Source: Escherichia phage vB_EcoS-22664B1. From it: 45,019 nucleotides of DNA. Every line of letters begins with the position of its first letter. Within the stretch, counting starts at the first letter, position 1. Made by a program: the position numbers and the translations under genes. The notes beneath the pieces were generated by a model that worked only from the letters and a program-made list of their open reading frames with translations, was not told where the DNA came from and made no database searches. The stretch is from sequence record MZ234008.1, one strand, 5' to 3'. This document shows, one piece after another, positions 3,471 to 44,940 of this stretch.

Positions 3471-4668
3471 ATGCACCCGCAAACTAAAATTACCGACGAG
3501 CAATTGATCGCTGAATTGCAATCTGGCACTACCTCGAAAGATATTGCGAAGAAATACGGCATTGCCCTTCGAAATGTCTATATGCGCAAAGCCCGCCTGT
3601 CGAAGAAAGGCATTGGTCACGGTAACGATGCCGTAATCCGTAAGCGCGTTGCCGATGGCTTCGGCGTTAAGCGTGTATCAGCCCTGGTGCGCGGCAATGG
3701 CGAAGAGGTCATGTCCTGGGTCATCACCGAGCAAGACAAGGAGCGCCAGCTTGAAGCAATGCGCGCCGTTGTCGAGGGCATGAATAGCGAAATCACACCG
3801 GCAGCACCAGTGAGCGCTCCGCCAGTCCCGATCCAGGCGCTTGACCTGCTTAACCTGTATACCGTGTCGGACTTCCACCTGGGAATGTTGGCGTGGGGCG
3901 AGGAGACTGGCGAGGACTGGGATATGGCAATCGCTGAAGACCTGTTCTACCGCTGGTTTGTCGAAGCCTTCGCCCGCGCACCGGACGCTGGAAGACCTGT
4001 TCTACCGCTGGTTTGTCGAAGCCTTCGCCCGCGCACCGGACGCTGGCACTGCCGTAATCAATATTCTCGGTGATATGGCGCATTTTGACAGCCTCGACGC
4101 CGTCACGCCAGCCAGTGGTCACGTACTGGACGCAGATACCCGCTACCAGAAACTGGTCCGCTACATGATTCGCATGGTGCGCAACGTGGTTGAACTGGCG
4201 CTGCAAAAACACCATAAGGTCAAACTGTTAATCGTCCAGGGTAATCATGATGAGTCCGGTATGATTTGGCTGGCTGAGATGTTCAATACCCTGTACGAGA
4301 ACGAGCCGCGCGTTGATGTGGACACGTCCCCGGACGTTTACAAAATGGTGCAGCACGGTAAAACAACGCTGTTCTTCCACCACGGACACAAAGCACGCTT
4401 TGACGCCATCGAACCGGTCATGATTTCTAAATTCAGACAGGCTTTCGGGTCCAGTGAGTACAGCTACGCGCACGTGGGCCACTTGCACCACCAGAAGATT
4501 GTTGAATCCCGCAACATGATTGTTGAACAGCACCGGACCCTTGCCGCGAAAGACGCATATGCGAGCCGCGGCGGTTGGATGTCTGGTCGTAGTGCTAACG
4601 TCATCACCTATAGCGCCAACTACGGCGAAGTAGCGCGCTTAACCATTAGCCCGGAAATGTTGAAATGA
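3471..4668 (+). pseudogene. HTH domain + calcineurin-like metallophosphoesterase gene, split by a 55-bp tandem duplication (frameshift)
   Basis: N-terminal HTH-like segment; metallophosphoesterase motifs SDFHLG, GDMAHFD, GNHDE, HHGH, GHLHH. ORFs 3471..4073 and 3841..4668 are the same gene in two frames; removing one 55-bp copy (3936-3990 or 3991-4045) restores one ORF of about 380 aa. Confidence 0.6.
3936..4045. repeat. perfect tandem duplication, 2 x 55 bp
   Basis: Unit gaagacctgttctaccgctggtttgtcgaagccttcgcccgcgcaccggacgctg occurs twice in tandem; cgctg microhomology at the junction. Confidence 0.9.
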
Positions 4669-16378: not shown

Positions 16379-16720
16379 TGAAGCGGGACAAAACGGGACG
16401 TCCCGCTTTGTCCCGTTTTGTCCCGCCACCTGCAAAACTGCATACCTACTCACTTTCATTGCATAAACTCAAAGCGGGACGAGCGGGACGTCCCGATCCG
16501 TCCCGCCCCCTAAATGTGCATACCTATTCAGATTTCGTGCATAAAACAAACGGGACAGAAAGCGGGACAAACATGGGGCGGGACAAAGCGGGACAGCACC
16601 CCGTCCCCGTCAGTGCTGCCGCGGGTTTCAGCCGATCGGGACAAGCGGGACAAACCCCAGTCTTTCAGACTAGACGGGGGTCAATGGCCCCCCTCGTCTG
16701 AGACTGAATAAGGTTTGTTT
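16378..16720. repeat. non-coding repeat region A: GGGAC palindromes, GCGGGACA iterons, TGCATA(A) repeats and conserved GC hairpin
   Basis: GCGGGACA at 16383, 16562, 16578, 16588, 16645; palindrome centred on GGGACGTCCC near 16397; about 165 bp (16548-16710) is about 85% identical to 44770-44937. Confidence 0.85.
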
Positions 16721-37981: not shown

Positions 37982-37993
37982 TTTTCATTGTCC

Positions 37994-38020
37994 TAATAAA
38001 AAGCCCGCAATAAGCGGGCT
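37994..38020 (-). terminator. rho-independent terminator on - strand (agcccgc ... gcgggct + U-run)
   Basis: On - strand the hairpin is followed by TTTTATT; sits directly after the in-frame stop of the SSB tail frame (38040-38042). Confidence 0.55.
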
Positions 38021-38039
38021 TGAATAGTGGGCTTTGCCC

Positions 38040-38773
38040 TTAACGGCGGCGACGTTTACGTGGTGCTTCGTCTTCGTCGTCGTCGTCCTCGTCTTCGTCA
38101 TCACGACGTTTGGACTTCTTAGCCTTGCGCGGTGCTTCATCTTCGTCATCGTCATCACGACGTTTGGACTTCTTAGCCTTGCGCGGTGCTTCATCTTCGT
38201 CATCGCGTCGCCCAGGTCGTCATCGGAACAAGAAGACCCGCCGCCACCGAAGGAGTCACCATCGTCACGGAAGCGAAGACCCATCAAACCCGCACCTAGA
38301 CCTTTGCCGTTGGTGTTGTTCCACGCCCAAATATCCAGGGACACGTTGCAATAACAACCGGAATAGATTTCCTGGCCTTCGATCTCGTCGCCGTCGATAG
38401 TCAGACCCTGTTCGGTCTGCTTCTCGCCCAGTGACGTTTGGATGTTAGGCTGTTTGAACGATTTGGCGTTGATGTACAACATTCCTTCGAATTCTTCGGT
38501 TACTTCGTCGCGCTCGTCACCGTCGCGAACTGCGCATTCCTTAGAATCCTGGGCGTAGTGGCGGTCCATCCACTTATCGGCGTTCTTCTCGGATTTCAGC
38601 TTGTCGGTAAGCACTGCGCGCGCTGCCGCTTCCACTTTGTCCACCTGCGGATCTTCTTTATCAAGAAGAATCACGGCACGGTATGCCGGTTTTTGTCCAT
38701 CCTGTTTAGGGGTATCACGTTCCCAAATTTTCAGGAAGCATACGCGTACATTTTTCAGGTTGACTTTAGCCAT
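38040..38773 (-). CDS. ssDNA-binding-protein-like (T7 gp2.5 / DUF2815-like) with charged repeat tail; -1 frame discontinuity near 38200-38219
   Basis: Body (start MAKVNLKNVRV, GAGGA RBS-like) is in the ORF-track frame. The C-terminal tail (DDEDEAPRKAKKSKRR x2 then DDEDEDDDDEDEAPRKRRRR) is in another frame ending at TAA 38040-38042; its third module differs from the first two only by synonymous changes in that frame. Confidence 0.5.
38098..38205. repeat. perfect tandem duplication, 2 x 54 bp, inside SSB-like tail
   Basis: Unit tcatcacgacgtttggacttcttagccttgcgcggtgcttcatcttcgtcatcg repeated head-to-tail; a degenerate third copy lies at about 38044-38097. Confidence 0.9.
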
Positions 38774-38836
38774 TTTCATTTCCTCATTTCGCATGTATCG
38801 GGGTTATTGTGAGCCACCCCGTTCGGCTTGGTTGCT

Positions 38837-38865: not shown

Positions 38866-39104
38866 GCACTTTTATTAAAAAGATTTCGTGTCACGTAGTT
38901 GGTGGCGTTCTCGATCCAGCTTAACGGCGGGCGGTCGATGTGCTTCTCAACCCAGTCGACGGCGACGTCGCTATATCCGTCGTCCAGCCAGCGGGATGGA
39001 TGGCGAATCATCCAGGCCAACATTAACACGCCTTGCACGCAATGCAGGATAAATCCCAGCGCGCCGAGCATAATCATCAATACGAATGCGAATACCTTAT
39101 TCAT
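38862..39104 (-). CDS. small membrane protein (80 aa)
   Basis: Hydrophobic N-terminus VFAFVLMIMLGALGFILHCVQGVLMLAWMI; overlaps end of upstream nuclease gene. Confidence 0.45.
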   Translation of the reverse strand: MNKVFAFVLMIMLGALGFILHCVQGVLMLAWMIRHPSRWLDDGYSDVAVDWVEKHIDRPPLSWIENATNYVTRNLFNKSA

Positions 39105-40527
39105 TGCTTAAGTCCTCGTCAGTAGCTTCAGACCACGCGGGGCGCGGGTCGTCGATTGGTGCCAATACCGGTTTAGCCGGTGCGCGCGTGATTTTATCAC
39201 ACAATTTAGCCCACACTTTCGGTTTCTCGTCCTTCAATACCTTCTCGGCATCGGTAGGACTGAGCAATGTTTCTTTGTACATTACATCGCGCTTGATCCG
39301 GGCCTTCGTGAAGATTTCAATCACTTCGCTCTCATCCGCCCACTTGCGATTACCTTCCTTACCGGCAACCATCTTGAGGCCCAGCGATTCGCCATCACCC
39401 GCCATCACCGCCTTGAATACTGCGGACTCGATAGCCTTGATGTGCTGACGCATTGCGTCGAGGCCTTCGTATGCATTACGCAGTTCCGCCGCGCTCATAG
39501 CGCCATTGGATTCTTCCTTATAGCCGCGCTTCGCACGTCGTGCCGCTTTCCGGGCTTCGCGGGCTGTATTGCGGTCGTGGTTGGCGCATTCTTCTTCTGT
39601 CGCCACGCTCACGTCGTCCGCCAGGTCGTCGTCTGTTGCCGTTGGTGGGGTCATCGTGTCGACGGCGGCCTTAGCGCGGGCACTACACTGATCCGCAAAT
39701 CGGCACCACTGACAGGCGTCAACGCTCGGTCGGAAGTCGGCACGGGTAAGTCCCTTCTTGCCTCGGGAATACGCGTCCAGTGCCGCGACCGCTCGCTTGG
39801 ACGCAAACTTAGCGAATATCTCCAGCGCTCCCACTGTAATATCCCACTCCGACGCCCCGCCGCAATACGGCTGGAAGATTACCAGGCGAACGGTCGTAAT
39901 GTCGTACATGGTTTGCAGCTTGCGCAGCAGGCCCAGCGCGTACAACATAAGCTGTTTGTTTTCTTTCGCCTCGACCTTATGTCGCCCGGTCTTCAGGTCG
40001 CCAACAATAAGCATGTACGTGCCGTCGGTCTTCTTCATGACCATGACCATATCGGCAGTTCCGAACGTCTTCACCTTGTTGCCGTCTATCTCGAAGCCAG
40101 GGTGCAAGATGCGGGTGAGATCGGCGCGCATTTCAAGCTGAACAAACTCCGCCACTTCAAGGAGCGGTCGCCAGTGGTCGATGTATGCATCGCACTGTTT
40201 CACCATATCGTCGTTGACCAGTACGCCGCCTTTCGGTGCTTTCGGGTGGGCCTTTACCGGTCCCTTACCTTCGTTCTCGACGTAGCACCCTTTGTACGTC
40301 TTCGCGGATAGCTTCTTCTCACCGGCAATGATGCGGTTTAACACGACCTCTGATACGGTGTGCATACTCGTACCGTTAATCGCAGCTTGCCCGGATTCGT
40401 TCGGGATACCTTTTTCGACTACCAGGGCGGCAGGACACCCCATCCATTTTTTAGATCCCGATGGTCCGAGTAATGAGTGTTCCGTATTGCTACCGGATTG
40501 CGTTTTGCGCTTCGGTTTAATAGCCAT
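39097..40527 (-). CDS. PD-(D/E)XK / Cas4-like exonuclease (DUF2800-like, RecB-family nuclease with Cys cluster)
   Basis: 476 aa; conserved-looking core with Cys cluster DACQWCRFADQC typical of Cas4/RecB-like nucleases; co-located with SSB-like gene and PolA. Confidence 0.55.
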   Translation of the reverse strand: MAIKPKRKTQSGSNTEHSLLGPSGSKKWMGCPAALVVEKGIPNESGQAAINGTSMHTVSEVVLNRIIAGEKKLSAKTYKGCYVENEGKGPVKAHPKAPKGGVLVNDDMVKQCDAYIDHWRPLLEVAEFVQLEMRADLTRILHPGFEIDGNKVKTFGTADMVMVMKKTDGTYMLIVGDLKTGRHKVEAKENKQLMLYALGLLRKLQTMYDITTVRLVIFQPYCGGASEWDITVGALEIFAKFASKRAVAALDAYSRGKKGLTRADFRPSVDACQWCRFADQCSARAKAAVDTMTPPTATDDDLADDVSVATEEECANHDRNTAREARKAARRAKRGYKEESNGAMSAAELRNAYEGLDAMRQHIKAIESAVFKAVMAGDGESLGLKMVAGKEGNRKWADESEVIEIFTKARIKRDVMYKETLLSPTDAEKVLKDEKPKVWAKLCDKITRAPAKPVLAPIDDPRPAWSEATDEDLSNE

Positions 40528-40980: not shown

Positions 40981-41006
40981 AAAATAGGCCCGCAGATTAG
41001 CGGGCC
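40981..41006 (-). terminator. rho-independent terminator on - strand (ggcccgc agatta gcgggcc + U-run)
   Basis: Perfect 7-bp stem; on - strand followed by TATTTTTAG. Confidence 0.5.
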
Positions 41007-41014
41007 GGATAATA

Positions 41015-41128
41015 TTAATCTTCACCGCCGAGTTGTCTATAAACCTCGTCCGGGTCGTCGCCTCTTTCTTCGCAGAAGGCGGTGAATGCCGCCCAATTTT
41101 CTGCTATGAAATCGAGCGTGATTCTCAT
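41015..41128 (-). CDS. small hypothetical ORF (37 aa)
   Basis: ATG..TAA ORF between charged-repeat gene and terminator; not in ORF track; weak. Confidence 0.25.
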   Translation of the reverse strand: MRITLDFIAENWAAFTAFCEERGDDPDEVYRQLGGED

Positions 41129-41144
41129 TTCATAGTCCATTATA

Positions 41145-41663
41145 TTAATCTTCTAATTCGAAATAAGTTTCGACGATTGCTTTTAATTCCTGGTGGAACT
41201 CTTCCACGTCGTCATCTTCCAGCTTGGCAACGGATTTAATTTCGAATTCTTCCAGCAGGTCGTCAAATTCGTCGTTTGCGTCGTCGTCATCACCGCCAGC
41301 AATAATAGCGGCATACTGCTTGATTTCGTCGCGCATCTCTTTCAGCGGATCGGCATCTTTCTTGCCTTTACCTTTCGCCGGTGCTTTCTTAGATTTCGCC
41401 GGGGCTTCTTCTTCGTCGTCCGCGTCGTCTTCTTCTACGGCTTCTTTCTTAGCCTTGCCCTTTGCTGGCGCTTTTTTTGTCTTAGCCGGTGCTTCGTCTT
41501 CAGCGTCGTCATCTTCGACTACTTCTTCTTTTGCCTTGCCCTTAGCCGGGGCTTTCTTCGCTTCCTGTTTACCAACGGCAGCGCCAGCAGTTTCATAATG
41601 CTTAGCGATGGTTTCCAGTGCTACTACGCCGCGTGTGATCAGGTTTACGATTTGCTCAAACAT
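41145..41663 (-). CDS. charged-repeat protein (172 aa; repeated DEAPAK-KKAPAKGKAKK modules), first gene of leftward early operon
   Basis: Start MFEQIVNLITRG with GGAGA RBS-like sequence; internal nucleotide repeats 41363-41550 encode alternating acidic/basic modules. Confidence 0.55.
   Translation of the reverse strand: MFEQIVNLITRGVVALETIAKHYETAGAAVGKQEAKKAPAKGKAKEEVVEDDDAEDEAPAKTKKAPAKGKAKKEAVEEDDADDEEEAPAKSKKAPAKGKGKKDADPLKEMRDEIKQYAAIIAGGDDDDANDEFDDLLEEFEIKSVAKLEDDDVEEFHQELKAIVETYFELED
41363..41550. repeat. imperfect tandem repeats (about 66-bp unit, about 2.5 copies) within charged-repeat gene
   Basis: Units containing cttagccggtgcttcgtcttc...gtcgtcatcttc recur; they encode the charged protein repeats. 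Confidence 0.7.
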
Positions 41664-41859
41664 TGTATATCTCCGATTGGTTAAGTTTAGGTGTCGGCAG
41701 TCAACTTCGTCGGTGGCCTTAACATAGTGCCAGGTTACGCGTTCTCCCTTTCGGGTAGTGGACCTGGTTATATAATCACGGTTGGGAATCCTGACACTTC
41801 GATCCGGCCCCTGCGTTGCCCCTCTCCAGTTTGCGTCCTGCATCCTGTCGACGGAGTGA

Positions 41860-41910
41860 ATAATAGATTGGTTGCAGGTGGGGTGTCAACAACTAATTTC
41901 AAAAAAAAAA
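41860..41910 (-). promoter_or_regulatory. putative strong early promoter for leftward operon (-10 TATTAT, 18-nt spacer with TGCAACCAA, -35 TTGACA, upstream A/T tract as UP-like element)
   Basis: On - strand: T10 tract (plus 41901-41910), TTGACA (41889-41884), spacer, TATTAT (41865-41860). Confidence 0.5.
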
Positions 41911-42006
41911 GCGCCGAGGCAAAATGCGACGGCGCTAACCAATAAGAGACAATGAGACGTGATTATTATTACACGCGTGCGCGCCCGTTTCAATATACAA
42001 AAGGAG

Positions 42007-42035: not shown

Positions 42036-42066
42036 CGTTGGTCATTAACCAATAGGAGACAGAACA

Positions 42067-42396
42067 ATGCATATCAACGACGCAATCGAAATGTTAACTA
42101 AGACCGTTAGTTGTGAGACAAGCCGGTCCTGGGCTTATACCGATGCCGTTGGTGCGGCGTTATTTGAAATCGAACGCCTGCGCAGTGTCGAAAAAGAATT
42201 GCGCGCCAAGCTGGAATTACTCAACGGTACGGCAGCAAGCAAGCTGCAAAAACACAATGAAGAAATGGAAGAATACAAAAAGCAGGTTATCCGTTTACGC
42301 GACGAGGGCAAGTCCTGGGCGATGATTGCCGAGTTGACCGGAATTAATCAGAGCACCGTGCGCTCCTGGGTACGCAATAATAAAACTTCTAAGTAA
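42067..42396 (+). CDS. HTH DNA-binding protein (putative transcriptional regulator)
   Basis: C-terminal helix-turn-helix-like segment SWAMIAELTGINQSTVRSWVRN; coiled-coil-like middle; AGGAGA RBS-like sequence. Confidence 0.55.
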   Translation: MHINDAIEMLTKTVSCETSRSWAYTDAVGAALFEIERLRSVEKELRAKLELLNGTAASKLQKHNEEMEEYKKQVIRLRDEGKSWAMIAELTGINQSTVRSWVRNNKTSK

Positions 42397-44671: not shown

Positions 44672-44759
44672 ATTTTGCGCGCATTGGTTGCCATTTTGAG
44701 TGTTTTTAGCTGGTCGCATTGGTTGCCGTGTAGTGTAAATATAGTGAATAGTTATGCAG

Positions 44760-44940
44760 TTTTATTGCATAAAGTAAGCGGGACAAAAAGCGGGACAGAC
44801 AGGGGGCGGGACAAGGCGGGACAGCACCCCCGTCCCGCCCCGGATTACGCGGCTTGCGGGGGAGCGGGACAGGCGGGACAAACCCCAGTCTTTCAGACTA
44901 GACGGGGGTCAGTTGGCCCCCTCGTCTGAGACTGCATAAA
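44760..44940. repeat. non-coding repeat region B: GCGGGACA iterons, inverted GGGAC and conserved GC hairpin (homologous to 16548-16710)
   Basis: GCGGGACA at 44778, 44789, 44806, 44816, 44864, 44873; the 3' 60 nt is nearly identical to region A. Confidence 0.85.

What the first reader, a model, noticed from the sequence alone, without database searches (positions are those of the whole stretch)
41145..41663. Charged-repeat protein as first gene of the leftward early operon, with modules resembling the SSB tail
The first gene after the strong leftward promoter encodes a small protein whose middle is made of tandem modules (APAKGKAKEEVVEDDDAEDE, APAKTKKAPAKGKAKKEAVEEDDADDEEE, APAKSKKAPAKGKGKKDAD) encoded by imperfect nucleotide repeats at about 41363-41550. 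The alternating Lys/Ala-Pro and Asp/Glu blocks resemble the SSB tail (DEAPRKAKKSK). Position and composition suggest an early host-takeover, DNA-mimic or histone-like protein. The repeats could serve as a copy-number-variable region.
Basis: partly seen in the sequence, partly recalled or inferred. Interest (0 to 1): 0.5.

Follow-up and report, generated by a model that had tools for sequence, protein, structure and literature searches.

The report
Charged-repeat protein heading phage replication operon
A real, conserved but uncharacterised phage gene: a small acidic protein whose two helical end-domains are joined by a charge-balanced repeat linker that changes length between close relatives. 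It always sits first in the phage's DNA replication/recombination operon, and its function is still unknown.

Summary
The minus strand at 41663..41145 encodes a 172-aa protein whose middle is 2.5 imperfect tandem modules (87-nt period); the quoted peptides are exact.

The window is an E. coli Dhillonvirus. The protein belongs to PHROG 3127 (function unknown) and has no Pfam or PDB relative.

It has three parts:
- a conserved N-terminal amphipathic helix;
- a disordered, net-neutral, blocky K/A/P and D/E linker;
- a confident, very acidic three-helix C-domain (-20 over 68 aa).

Among 97 Dhillonvirus variants the end-domains are 95-97% identical, while the linker runs from 17 to 81 aa. The predicted copy-number variation is therefore confirmed. 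Repeat copies differ mostly at synonymous sites, so selection acts on the peptide, not the DNA.

In nine phage lineages including the window (Enc34 only by position and architecture) the gene is first in the DUF2800 exonuclease / gp2.5-like SSB / PolA operon. In eight of them it is seen opposite a small divergent gene (a confirmed HTH in five). The SSB tail carries related acid/base modules.

Most likely it is a tethered accessory factor of this module. A Gam/gp5.9-like host-nuclease decoy is the main rival. "Histone-like" fails on charge.

Its 5' leader holds a covarying 153-nt RNA with no Rfam family, arguably the more novel item.

The parts
41860..41889 (-). Sigma-70-type promoter TTGACA-18-TATTAT of the leftward operon
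   Evidence: 11 of 12 matches. Conserved in phage welsh.
41701..41855 (-). Conserved structured RNA element in the 5' leader of the gene (153-position model, 26 base pairs)
   Evidence: About 98% identical to welsh, although the locus overall is 90% identical. Covariance model R1 scores 160 bits here and finds 24 copies in Dhillonvirus and several other siphophage groups. All 598 cells form pairs, and 8 pairs show compensatory changes. No Rfam hit.
41671..41674 (-). Shine-Dalgarno GGAG, 7 nt before the ATG
   Evidence: Read directly from the sequence.
41145..41663 (-). Coding sequence of the 172-aa protein (PHROG 3127), stop codon included
   Evidence: PHROG 3127 at E = 2.3e-50 over the full length. 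228 homologues found.
41574..41663 (-). Residues 1-30: conserved N-terminal amphipathic helix (MFEQIVNLITRGVVALETIAKHYE...)
   Evidence: AlphaFold2 helix at residues 2-23. Eight invariant positions across relatives down to 44% identity. 97% mean pairwise identity within the genus.
41352..41573 (-). Residues 31-104: disordered polyampholyte linker. Module A is 41493-41573, module B 41406-41492, module C (partial) 41352-41405.
   Evidence: Tandem repeat. pLDDT below 50 for residues 23-101. Charge statistics, coordinates, length variation.
41148..41351 (-). Residues 105-172: conserved, very acidic three-helix C-terminal domain
   Evidence: AlphaFold2 helices at 106-123, 127-139 and 150-168, pLDDT about 90. 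Net charge -20, pI 4.05.
41015..41140 (-). 41-aa ORF (PHROG 15754) that follows immediately; probably co-transcribed
40987..41006 (-). Terminator-like GC hairpin followed by a T-run, after the 41-aa ORF
   Evidence: Annotated as a terminator in phage WFI.
39097..40527 (-). DUF2800 / PD-(D/E)XK exonuclease, the conserved downstream partner gene
   Evidence: Pfam PF10926 at E = 2.3e-66. Same synteny.
37985..38794 (-). gp2.5-like SSB / annealing protein. Its tail repeats (about 38040-38225) are related to the linker modules. The tail is frame-shifted in this window.
42067..42396 (+). Divergently transcribed small HTH protein; a small divergent gene sits in this position in every lineage where the upstream side is held (HTH signal confirmed in five)
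   Evidence: Pfam HTH_23, HTH_28 and Sigma70_r4_2. Divergent small genes with an HTH signal or annotation; divergent small genes without one.

Best explanation
This is a real, conserved phage gene. It encodes a three-part protein: a short conserved N-terminal amphipathic helix, an intrinsically disordered linker, and a conserved, strongly acidic three-helix C-terminal domain. The linker is charge-balanced and made of blocks of opposite charge, built from tandem (APAKxKK)n plus D/E-rich modules.

It is the leading gene of the 'DUF2800 exonuclease / gp2.5-like SSB-annealase / DNA polymerase A' replication-recombination operon.

The most likely role is an accessory, adaptor-type factor of that module. 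In this model the two conserved end-domains are the specific binding surfaces. One would serve self-association or anchoring. The other, the acidic bundle, would bind a basic partner such as the Arg-rich tip or basic blocks of the phage SSB tail, or the exonuclease. The linker would be a flexible electrostatic tether. Its composition and charge pattern are selected, but its length is free to change by slippage or unequal recombination between the repeats.

Shown: the anatomy, the conservation pattern, the synteny and the repeat dynamics. Inferred: the partners and the biochemical role.
For: Anatomy. The helix / disorder / three-helix-bundle layout appears in two independent AlphaFold2 runs. 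C-domain pLDDT is 84-93. The N-helix does not dock on the C-domain even with a 17-aa linker. This fits two separate binding modules.

Conservation. Across relatives down to 44% identity, invariant residues cluster in the N-helix and the C-domain. Within the genus the N-domain is 97% and the C-domain 95% identical, while the linker runs from 17 to 81 aa. 158 pairs have identical end-domains but different linker lengths.

Linker constraint. Linker net charge stays near zero (median +1, range -6 to +8). Kappa is 0.50 against 0.14 in shuffles.

Peptide-level selection. Among the five APAKxKx heptads, 35 codon pairs differ synonymously, 20 are identical and 15 are non-synonymous.

Synteny. X, then 0-3 small ORFs, then the DUF2800 exonuclease, occurs in every informative context: the window, L003/L004, L005, Jerseyvirus Ent1, L009, L008, L012, eiAU and, by position and architecture, Enc34 ORF3. 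The gp2.5-like SSB and PolA follow wherever the contig extends far enough, except that no SSB was called in L012. A small divergent gene lies upstream in all eight lineages where that side is held; it carries an HTH signal or annotation in five.

Literature. The duf2800-gp2.5-polA module is a described unit (PMC8093625).

Link to the SSB. All seven lineages with this protein whose SSB could be read also have an SSB tail of alternating acid/base modules with Arg-rich basic blocks, ending in an Arg-rich tip in six of seven. Enc34 has a canonical acidic tail and a short basic-only linker. The two repeat sets are similar at the DNA level.
Against: - No interaction was tested, and no partner could be predicted with the tools at hand.
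- There is no homology to any characterised protein.
- The acidity of the C-domain is not universal. The remote homologue P0171 is only -1 over its last 65 residues.
- The co-occurrence with SSB-tail modules rests on about seven related lineages and one contrast, so it is phylogenetically weak.
- The position upstream of the exonuclease and the strong acidity fit a host-directed decoy equally well.
Confidence: 0.4

Rival explanations
1. Host-directed acidic decoy. The C-domain would mimic nucleic acid and inhibit a host DNA-end nuclease (RecBCD). This would be a functional analogue of lambda Gam or T7 gp5.9. It would protect the linear phage DNA so that the phage's own exonuclease, gp2.5-like protein and polymerase can carry out recombination-dependent replication.
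For: - The C-domain carries -20 over 68 aa, pI 4.05.
- It is the first gene after a consensus sigma-70 promoter.
- It sits shortly upstream of the phage exonuclease, separated by three small ORFs. Lambda gam and T7 5.9 likewise lie upstream of their exonuclease genes (own knowledge of those genome maps).
- P2 OLD, which is activated by RecBCD inhibition, robustly blocks Dhillonvirus phages (bioRxiv 10.64898/2026.07.10.737580).
- No gp5.9 equivalent has been recognised in Dhillonvirus (PMC13434337).
- The neighbouring gene that some records label 'nuclease inhibitor gamma' is only an HTH protein.
Against: - No sequence or fold similarity to Gam, gp5.9, Abc2, Ocr or ArdA.
- Remote homologues keep the architecture and synteny but lose the acidity (P0171).
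- The same preprint says OLD can also be triggered by hairpins in a replication origin, so OLD sensitivity does not prove a RecBCD inhibitor.
- It is a core gene with highly conserved domains. That is not diagnostic either way.
Confidence: 0.27
2. Histone H1-like or nucleoid-associated DNA binder. The Lys/Ala/Pro repeats would bind and compact or mark DNA, for host takeover or organisation of phage DNA. The acidic blocks would act as an auto-inhibitory or chaperone-like element.
For: - Five APAKxK(K/A/G) heptads resemble the PAKK/AKKA repeats of the histone H1 C-terminal domain, mycobacterial HupB and AlgP (own knowledge; heptads).
- The weak PDB profile hit to the nucleoplasmin tail reflects the same alternation of acidic and basic stretches (E = 1.5, not significant).
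Against: - Each basic block is matched by an acidic block. Linker net charge per residue is -0.01, the whole protein is -22 with pI 4.5.
- Some natural variants have almost no linker (17-26 aa, metagenome assemblies only) yet keep both end-domains.
- The conserved parts of the protein are the end-domains, not the repeats.
Confidence: 0.1
3. The linker and the SSB tail are complementary blocky polyampholytes that co-assemble by multivalent electrostatics, giving a condensate-like replication/recombination hub. Linker length would tune the assembly.
For: - High kappa of 0.50 at a charged fraction of 0.55.
- Related modules occur in two proteins of the same operon in seven lineages.
- Both repeat arrays vary in copy number.
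Against: Purely inferential. Such sequences can equally be inert spacers. No experimental or structural support is available here.
Confidence: 0.1
4. The repeats work at the DNA level, for example as replication-origin iterons inside the first gene of the replication operon, as ori-lambda lies within gene O. The peptide repeats would then be a by-product.
For: Tandem DNA repeats next to the primase-helicase and polymerase genes. There is precedent for origins inside linker-coding parts of initiator genes (own knowledge of lambda O and SPP1 gene 38).
Against: - Repeat copies are only 61-81% identical.
- They differ mostly at synonymous positions while the peptide is kept: 35 synonymous against 20 identical codon pairs.
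- Copy number varies from about 0 to 3 among otherwise near-identical phages.
- No DNA-binding domain is present in the protein.
Confidence: 0.03
5. A late or structural protein, as the inherited database name '13.88 kDa late protein' suggests.
For: UniProt Q9T1Z8 of Salmonella phage MB78 carries this name. It is a structural and sequence relative (E = 4e-4), and the name has spread to Jerseyvirus records. One genome paper lists it among structural proteins by name only (PMC9787291).
Against: - No experimental basis for the name could be found.
- In every genome examined the gene lies in the replication operon, far from the structural genes.
- It is preceded by a sigma-70 consensus promoter.
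Confidence: 0.03

Closest known systems
PHROG 3127 (uncharacterised phage protein family; includes Jerseyvirus Ent1 gp41, Edwardsiella phage eiAU gp46 and the '13.88 kDa late protein' of Salmonella phage MB78)
   Same: Full-length profile match at E = 2.3e-50. Same three-part architecture and same position in the genome.
   Different: Nothing differs; it is a member. The family has no known function. The Dhillonvirus branch is distinguished by the regular APAKxKK / acidic tandem modules.
T7 gp5.9 and lambda Gam (RecBCD inhibitors encoded just upstream of the phage exonuclease)
   Same: Small, helical and very acidic. An early-operon gene upstream of the recombination exonuclease.
   Different: No sequence or fold similarity. 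X also has an N-terminal helix and a long disordered linker, and three small ORFs separate it from the exonuclease. The activity was not tested.
T7 Ocr (gp0.3), the first early gene and a DNA-mimic anti-restriction protein
   Same: First gene behind an early host-type promoter; high density of negative charge.
   Different: Ocr is a compact dimer with no disordered repeat region and is an accessory gene. X is a core gene, syntenic with the replication module. No homology.
Disordered tails of single-strand DNA-binding proteins, in particular this phage group's own gp2.5-like SSB tail
   Same: Disordered, tandemly modular and variable in copy number. Shares the motif DEAP(R/A)K.KK and shows DNA-level similarity: 80% over 41 nt, and a local score of 49 against 24 +/- 4.
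   Different: X has no OB fold and is all-helical. Its modules use Lys only, while the SSB tail is rich in Arg and usually ends in an Arg-rich tip.
Histone H1 C-terminal domain, mycobacterial HupB tail and AlgP (PAKK/KPAA repeats)
   Same: Lys/Ala/Pro heptads of the APAKxKK type.
   Different: Those proteins are strongly basic. Here every basic block is neutralised by an acidic block and the whole protein is acidic.
Lambda Red-beta C-terminal three-helix bundle (binds lambda Exo and host SSB)
   Same: A small three-helix domain encoded in a phage recombination operon next to an exonuclease. This is an analogy drawn from my own knowledge.
   Different: No significant structural or sequence match was obtained. 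The only recombinase-related hits are weak ones to entry 8qe9, the 80-alpha Sak/Stl complex (Foldseek E = 0.77, HMM E = 0.29).

Membership tests
PHROG 3127 | Significant full-length match to the family profile | tested here: met
   E = 2.3e-50; residues 1-172 against profile positions 1-178 of 178.
DNA-mimic proteins (Ocr, ArdA, Gam, gp5.9) | High density of negative charge, low pI | tested here: met
   C-domain: 26 acidic and 6 basic residues in 68 aa, pI 4.05. Whole protein pI 4.48.
DNA-mimic proteins (Ocr, ArdA, Gam, gp5.9) | Sequence or fold homology to a known mimic family | tested here: not met
   No Pfam hit above threshold. No PDB sequence hit. No Foldseek PDB hit with E <= 0.001.
DNA-mimic proteins (Ocr, ArdA, Gam, gp5.9) | Carboxylates arranged like a DNA backbone; binds and inhibits a DNA-binding enzyme | not testable with these tools
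   Needs a complex structure or biochemistry.
Histone H1-like / HupB-tail / AlgP basic repeat proteins | Tandem Lys/Ala/Pro repeats | tested here: met
   Five APAKxKx heptads at residues 38, 58, 65, 87 and 94.
Histone H1-like / HupB-tail / AlgP basic repeat proteins | Strong net positive charge of the repeat region | tested here: not met
   Linker has 20 K against 21 D/E, net charge per residue -0.01.
SSB proteins (OB fold plus disordered tail) | OB-fold ssDNA-binding core | tested here: not met
   The AlphaFold2 model is helices plus disorder only. No PF10991 or SSB Pfam hit.
Initiator gene carrying an internal origin (lambda O type) | DNA-level conserved iterons within the gene | tested here: not met
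   Copies are 61-81% identical. Synonymous differences dominate. Copy number is not conserved.
duf2800-gp2.5-polA replication/recombination module (as an accessory gene) | Conserved position immediately upstream of the module, across lineages | tested here: met
   Window plus eight further lineages, L003/L004, L005, L006, L008, L009, L012, L016 and L041. Enc34 (L016) is included on position and architecture only.
duf2800-gp2.5-polA replication/recombination module (as an accessory gene) | Physical or functional interaction with module proteins | not testable with these tools
   No multimer prediction or experiment was available.

The most novel reading that the evidence does not exclude
The protein and the phage's gp2.5-like SSB form a two-component electrostatic system. 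Both carry exchangeable, copy-number-variable blocks of alternating acidic and basic residues. The very acidic three-helix domain of X caps or competes with the unusual Arg-rich SSB tail. Together they would organise, possibly as a condensate, the replication/recombination machinery, or gate its access to DNA ends.

As a bonus, expression of the operon would be governed by a previously undescribed 153-nt structured leader RNA shared with unrelated siphophages.
Probability: 0.12. Interest if true: 0.7.

Novelty: new variant of a known kind. Interest (0 to 1): 0.4.

Why it matters
The duf2800-gp2.5-polA module is one of the most widespread replication/recombination cassettes of tailed phages. 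Its leading gene has never been characterised.

This analysis gives that gene a defined architecture, a conserved genomic context and a natural series of linker lengths. Together these make concrete tests possible:
- Is it the missing RecBCD-directed factor that would explain why OLD blocks Dhillonvirus?
- Or is it a partner of the unusual SSB tail, which carries Arg-rich basic blocks?

The linker is also a clean natural example of a blocky polyampholyte. Its charge pattern is conserved while its length changes faster than point substitutions accumulate.

The covarying leader RNA found next to the gene may be a new class of cis-regulatory RNA in coliphages.

Tried and rejected
1. Pfam scan of the protein gave only sub-threshold low-complexity hits: BUD22, DUF6669 and DUF740.

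2. PDB profile searches, with the whole protein and with a 34-sequence C-domain profile, gave nothing significant. The hits were ribosomal S20, the nucleoplasmin tail and protein A three-helix repeats.

3. Foldseek against PDB had its best hit at E = 0.25, a helical subdomain of pyruvate phosphate dikinase. Foldseek against BFVD returned only uncharacterised phage proteins.

4. A second word-indexed protein search with the C-domain profile returned only 4 close relatives and added nothing.

5. The published Dhillonvirus anti-Tmn protein is a different gene, ORF35, which has a beta-sheet C-domain.

6. The gene mutated in Retron-Eco7 escapers of a Dhillonvirus could not be identified. No supplements were held.

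7. The origin of the name '13.88 kDa late protein' could not be traced beyond the UniProt entry for phage MB78.

8. The 232-aa extended ORF was rejected:
   - it has a poor ribosome-binding site;
   - 3 of the 4 substitutions against welsh are non-synonymous;
   - distant relatives have a different upstream sequence or none;
   - the region is a covarying RNA.

9. The idea of origin iterons was rejected on codon-level evidence.

10. The annotation 'DNA recombination nuclease inhibitor gamma' on the neighbouring gene was rejected. That gene is HTH_23 / Sigma70_r4-like with no Gam signal.

11. I tested whether the N-helix packs on the C-domain, using the natural 17-aa-linker variant. There was no confident docking; N-helix pLDDT was about 40.

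12. Enc34 ORF3 as a homologue has positional and architectural support only. hhalign was not significant (E = 0.064, 13 columns), with a weak shared link to PHROG 18562.
Full report
**What the window is.** The 1.2 kb around the finding is 99.9% identical to Escherichia phage vB_EcoS-101114B2. It is 88-90% identical to many other members of the genus Dhillonvirus (HK578-like E. coli siphophages); 200 phage records match.

**Check of the observation**
- The minus-strand ORF starts at ATG 41663. It is preceded by GGAG at 41674-41671 and ends at stop 41147-41145, giving 172 aa.
- Tandem Repeats Finder reports one array at 41351-41558: period 87 nt, 2.5 copies, 75% matches, score 210. The gap-free repeat finder gives three 67-nt copies at 61-81% identity.
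- A near-consensus sigma-70 promoter (TTGACA-18-TATTAT, 11 of 12 matches) lies at 41889-41860. No ORF with a credible start lies between it and this gene.
- Some GenBank records extend the ORF to ATG 41843, giving 232 aa. I reject that start for five reasons:
  - the AGGA overlaps the ATG, so the ribosome-binding site is poor;
  - 3 of the 4 differences from phage welsh in the extension are non-synonymous;
  - a diverged Dhillonvirus has a different 'extension' that reads through the promoter (P0063);
  - more distant relatives start at the equivalent of MFEQ or MLEK;
  - the region is a covarying RNA structure (see 'The leader RNA' below).

**Anatomy of the protein**
- AlphaFold2 with a 31-sequence alignment gives a helix at residues 2-23 (pLDDT about 58) and disorder over residues 23-101 (pLDDT below 50). 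It also gives a confident three-helix bundle at 106-168, with block pLDDT 86-93 over residues 111-170.
- A second run on a natural variant with only a 17-aa linker gives the same bundle. The N-helix does not dock on it; its pLDDT is about 40.
- The N-helix is amphipathic, not a membrane segment.
- The linker (residues 31-104) has 20 Lys, 0 Arg, 21 Asp/Glu, 17 Ala and 5 Pro. Its charged fraction is 0.55 and its net charge per residue -0.01.
- The linker's charges are strongly segregated into blocks. Kappa is 0.50, against 0.14 +/- 0.05 in 1000 shuffles, none of which reached it.
- The C-domain has 26 acidic and 6 basic residues in 68 aa, pI 4.05. The whole protein is -22, pI 4.5.

**What the repeats are selected for**
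- The five APAKxKx heptads give 70 codon-pair comparisons: 20 identical, 35 synonymous and 15 non-synonymous. All the non-synonymous ones fall at the two variable positions.
- The peptide is therefore maintained while the DNA drifts. This argues for a constraint at the protein level. It argues against a function of the DNA repeats (such as iterons) and against a very recent duplication.

**Copy-number variation**
- A search of 5.8 billion proteins gave 228 hits. Of the hits whose sequences were retrieved, 97 are Dhillonvirus-type cluster representatives.
- In those 97 the linker is 17-81 aa long. The distribution has modes near 45 aa (one acidic block) and near 69 aa (two acidic blocks).
- The N-domain averages 97% pairwise identity and the C-domain 95%.
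- 158 pairs have identical N- and C-domains but different linker lengths, for example 75 against 44-46 aa.
- Indels correspond to whole modules (about 27-29 aa) or to single APAKxKK heptads.
- Sequenced isolates range from 142 to 172 aa: jat, SM_S22, TheodorHerzl, EK99P-1, CS16, 011D5, AV129 and this window.
- The extreme short forms (115-124 aa) come only from metagenome assemblies, where collapse of repeats cannot be excluded.
- Linker net charge stays near zero: median +1, range -6 to +8.

**The family**
- The protein matches PHROG 3127 (unknown function) over its full length, E = 2.3e-50. Pfam has nothing.
- An exhaustive profile search of 1.84 billion cluster representatives found only 63 clusters with E <= 0.001. 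The family is narrow.
- Members share three features: the N-helix motif (..L(I/L)(T/E)R(G/F)VVA(L/H)E.IA..), a K/R/P and D/E linker, and one C-domain. In three cases there are two tandem C-domains.
- The family occurs in Dhillonvirus, Guernseyvirinae (Jerseyvirus Ent1 gp41; Kagunavirus), Enterobacter phage phiEap-2, Edwardsiella phage eiAU gp46 and metagenomic phages.
- The label '13.88 kDa late protein' on some Jerseyvirus records traces to UniProt Q9T1Z8 of Salmonella phage MB78. I found no experimental basis for it.
- The remotest members (P0171, P0173; PHROG 18196) keep an almost identical N-helix. Their C-domain is non-acidic and resembles PHROGs 408 and 18562, both also uncharacterised.

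**Genomic context.** In all nine lineages (L003 and L004 counted as one, Enc34 included on position and architecture only) the gene is the first gene of an operon that continues with 0-3 small ORFs and then a DUF2800 / PD-(D/E)XK exonuclease. The gp2.5-like SSB/annealing protein (PF10991) and a family-A DNA polymerase follow wherever the contig extends far enough, except that no SSB was called in L012. On the other side, in the eight lineages where the upstream region is held, a small gene is transcribed divergently, usually next to a primase-helicase. It carries an HTH signal or annotation in five of them (window, L003/L004, Ent1, L009, Enc34); the small divergent genes of L008 and eiAU gave none.
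- Window: the exonuclease is 39097-40527 (PF10926, E = 2e-66) and the HTH protein is 42067-42396.
- Metagenomic loci: L003/L004, L005 and L009.
- Jerseyvirus Ent1.
- The remote L008, which has a Prim-Pol primase, and the remote L012.
- Edwardsiella phage eiAU.
- Enc34 (Casjensviridae): ORF3 has the same position and the same helix / basic linker / helical domain layout. Sequence support for homology is weak: hhalign E = 0.064, plus a shared weak link to PHROG 18562.

The duf2800-gp2.5-polA unit is described in the literature (PMC8093625). This leading gene is not mentioned in the passages I read.

**The SSB tail**
- In HK578 and WFI the gp2.5-like SSB ends in in-frame modules such as DDEDEAPRKAKKSKRR. 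There are 2.5 to 3.5 copies, so this array also varies in copy number. The tail finishes in ...DEAPRKRRRR.
- In this window a 2-nt insertion (GACG[CG]ATGACG, about 38206) puts the whole tail out of frame. The near-identical 101114B2 has a different frameshift further downstream.
- The resemblance is more than compositional:
  - a repeat search of the whole window groups the two arrays together; 38062-38102 against 41488-41528 is 80% identical over 41 nt;
  - a local DNA alignment scores 49, against 24 +/- 4 (maximum 42) for 300 codon shuffles. That null model destroys the block order, so the score shows a shared module layout, not proven common descent.
- All seven lineages with a PHROG 3127-type protein whose SSB could be read have SSB tails of alternating acid/base modules with Arg-rich basic blocks. 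Six of the seven end in an Arg-rich tip; the eiAU tail ends ...RRRSRDDD. Enc34 has a canonical acidic tail (...DEDEWDEDEV) and a short, purely basic linker in ORF3.
- This co-occurrence is suggestive but phylogenetically shallow.

**Function**
- Homology gives nothing: Pfam, PDB sequence profiles, Foldseek against PDB and Foldseek against BFVD.
- The data do show two short, strongly conserved modules that do not pack on each other. They are joined by a linker with conserved composition and pattern but unconstrained length. The gene is core and fixed at the head of the replication/recombination operon over large evolutionary distances.
- I therefore favour an adaptor or tethered accessory factor of that module (confidence 0.4). 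Likely partners of the acidic domain are the basic SSB tail or the exonuclease.
- The main rival (0.27) is a host-directed acidic decoy analogous to Gam or gp5.9:
  - those genes also lie upstream of their exonuclease genes (own knowledge);
  - P2 OLD, which senses RecBCD inhibition, blocks Dhillonvirus phages (preprint);
  - no gp5.9 equivalent is recognised in Dhillonvirus;
  - the 'Gam' label on the neighbouring gene is unfounded.
- Against the rival: no similarity to any known inhibitor, and remote homologues lose the acidity.
- 'Histone-like' fails because the repeat region is net neutral. Iterons fail on codon evidence. 'Late protein' is only a name.

**The leader RNA (outside the finding, but part of this gene's expression unit)**
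- The 190-nt leader is about 98% identical between this phage and welsh, although the locus overall is 90% identical.
- Part of it matches intergenic regions of unrelated siphophages: Warwickvirus tunus, Sortsnevirus sortkaff, Bas97 and Klebsiella phage KMI8. There it always has the orientation of the flanking genes, follows a -10-like box, and lies upstream of unrelated genes.
- A covariance model (153 positions, 26 base pairs) finds 24 copies at 150-180 bits. The window copy is at 41855-41701.
- The model finds none in the X-bearing Jerseyvirus, Enc34 or metagenomic loci, so the RNA is independent of the protein family.
- On the model-fitted alignment all 598 cells are standard pairs, and 8 pairs show compensatory changes. 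All four pairs of one helix have 3-4 pair types each. Controls with the partner slid by 1-3 columns give 30-51% pairing. The fit to the model inflates these numbers somewhat.
- The compensatory changes are also visible in the plain MAFFT alignment:
  - within Dhillonvirus, CCAGGU/ACCUGG against CCUGGU/ACCAGG against CCCGGU/ACCGGG;
  - in the other groups, CUAUC/GAUAG, CGCAC/GUGCG and AUUGG/CCAAU.
- Rfam 15 has no match at E <= 1 in the window or in four other loci.
- The minimum-free-energy fold of the single sequence is unremarkable, z = -0.7.
- Its role is unknown. Candidates are a processive antiterminator, a riboswitch or another cis-regulator.

**Verdict**
The copy-number variation and the resemblance to the SSB tail hold. 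The histone-like idea does not. The DNA-mimic and host-takeover ideas are undecided.
- The gene belongs to a sequenced but uncharacterised family and has a newly defined architecture and context.
- Interest is moderate (0.4). The neighbouring RNA motif may deserve its own follow-up.

Noticed in passing
window 41701-41855 (- strand); also L017:1472-1626, L018:1487-1639, L019:1487-1640, L020:1474-1628: A roughly 153-nt structured RNA element lies in the 5' leader of the gene. It is shared with unrelated siphophage genera (Warwickvirus, Sortsnevirus, Bas97, Klebsiella KMI8), always intergenic, in sense orientation and after a -10-like box. There are 24 copies, all model pairs are kept, 8 pairs show compensatory changes, and Rfam 15 has no match. 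It is a candidate new cis-regulatory RNA (antiterminator or riboswitch).
   Followed up: partly
window 37985-38794 (- strand), indel near 38206: The gp2.5-like SSB gene carries a 2-nt insertion (GACG[CG]ATGACG) compared with WFI and HK578. This throws its whole acid/base repeat tail out of frame. The 99.9%-identical phage 101114B2 has a different frameshift in the same tail. Either these are sequencing or assembly errors in a repeat, or the changes are real.
   Followed up: partly
window 38040-38225 (- strand) and relatives L013, L014, L009: The SSB tail is itself a copy-number-variable tandem array: 2.5 modules in HK578 and the window, 3.5 in WFI and L009. In most lineages it ends in an Arg-rich tip instead of the canonical acidic SSB tip.
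   Followed up: partly
window 3936-4045 (+ strand): A perfect 55-nt tandem duplication sits inside a gene annotated 'DNA repair exonuclease' in Bas83 and Bas85. All eight top-listed relatives, including the otherwise closest phage 101114B2, carry a single copy (226 nt against 281 nt). The duplication is not a multiple of 3, so it shifts the reading frame.
   Followed up: partly
window 41903-41993 (- strand): Just upstream of the main promoter lie a second promoter-like site (TTGAAA-17-AATAAT with TG, 41993-41965) and a GC hairpin followed by T10 (about 41935-41903). Together they could give a transcript of about 55 nt. The hairpin gave only a weak terminator-type hit to Rfam ncS54, E = 0.2.
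   Followed up: no
window about 42036-42056 and 41930-41950 (- strand): A direct repeat of the motif TGTCTC(C/T)TATTGGTTA occurs in the divergent intergenic region between the HTH gene and this operon. These may be operator sites for the HTH protein (seen by eye).
   Followed up: no
window 42067-42396 (+ strand): This small gene is annotated in several GenBank records as 'DNA recombination nuclease inhibitor gamma', and in others as transposase or resolvase. Here it shows only HTH_23, HTH_28 and Sigma70_r4 signals and no Gam signal, so the Gam label looks like an annotation error.
   Followed up: yes
window 16516-16711 and 44744-44939 (+ strand): A 196-nt direct repeat at 82% identity, with copies 28 kb apart. 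Not examined.
   Followed up: no
P0121, P0125, P0136 (metagenomic homologues): Three family members carry two tandem copies of the C-terminal three-helix domain. This hints that the single-domain proteins may work as dimers.
   Followed up: no
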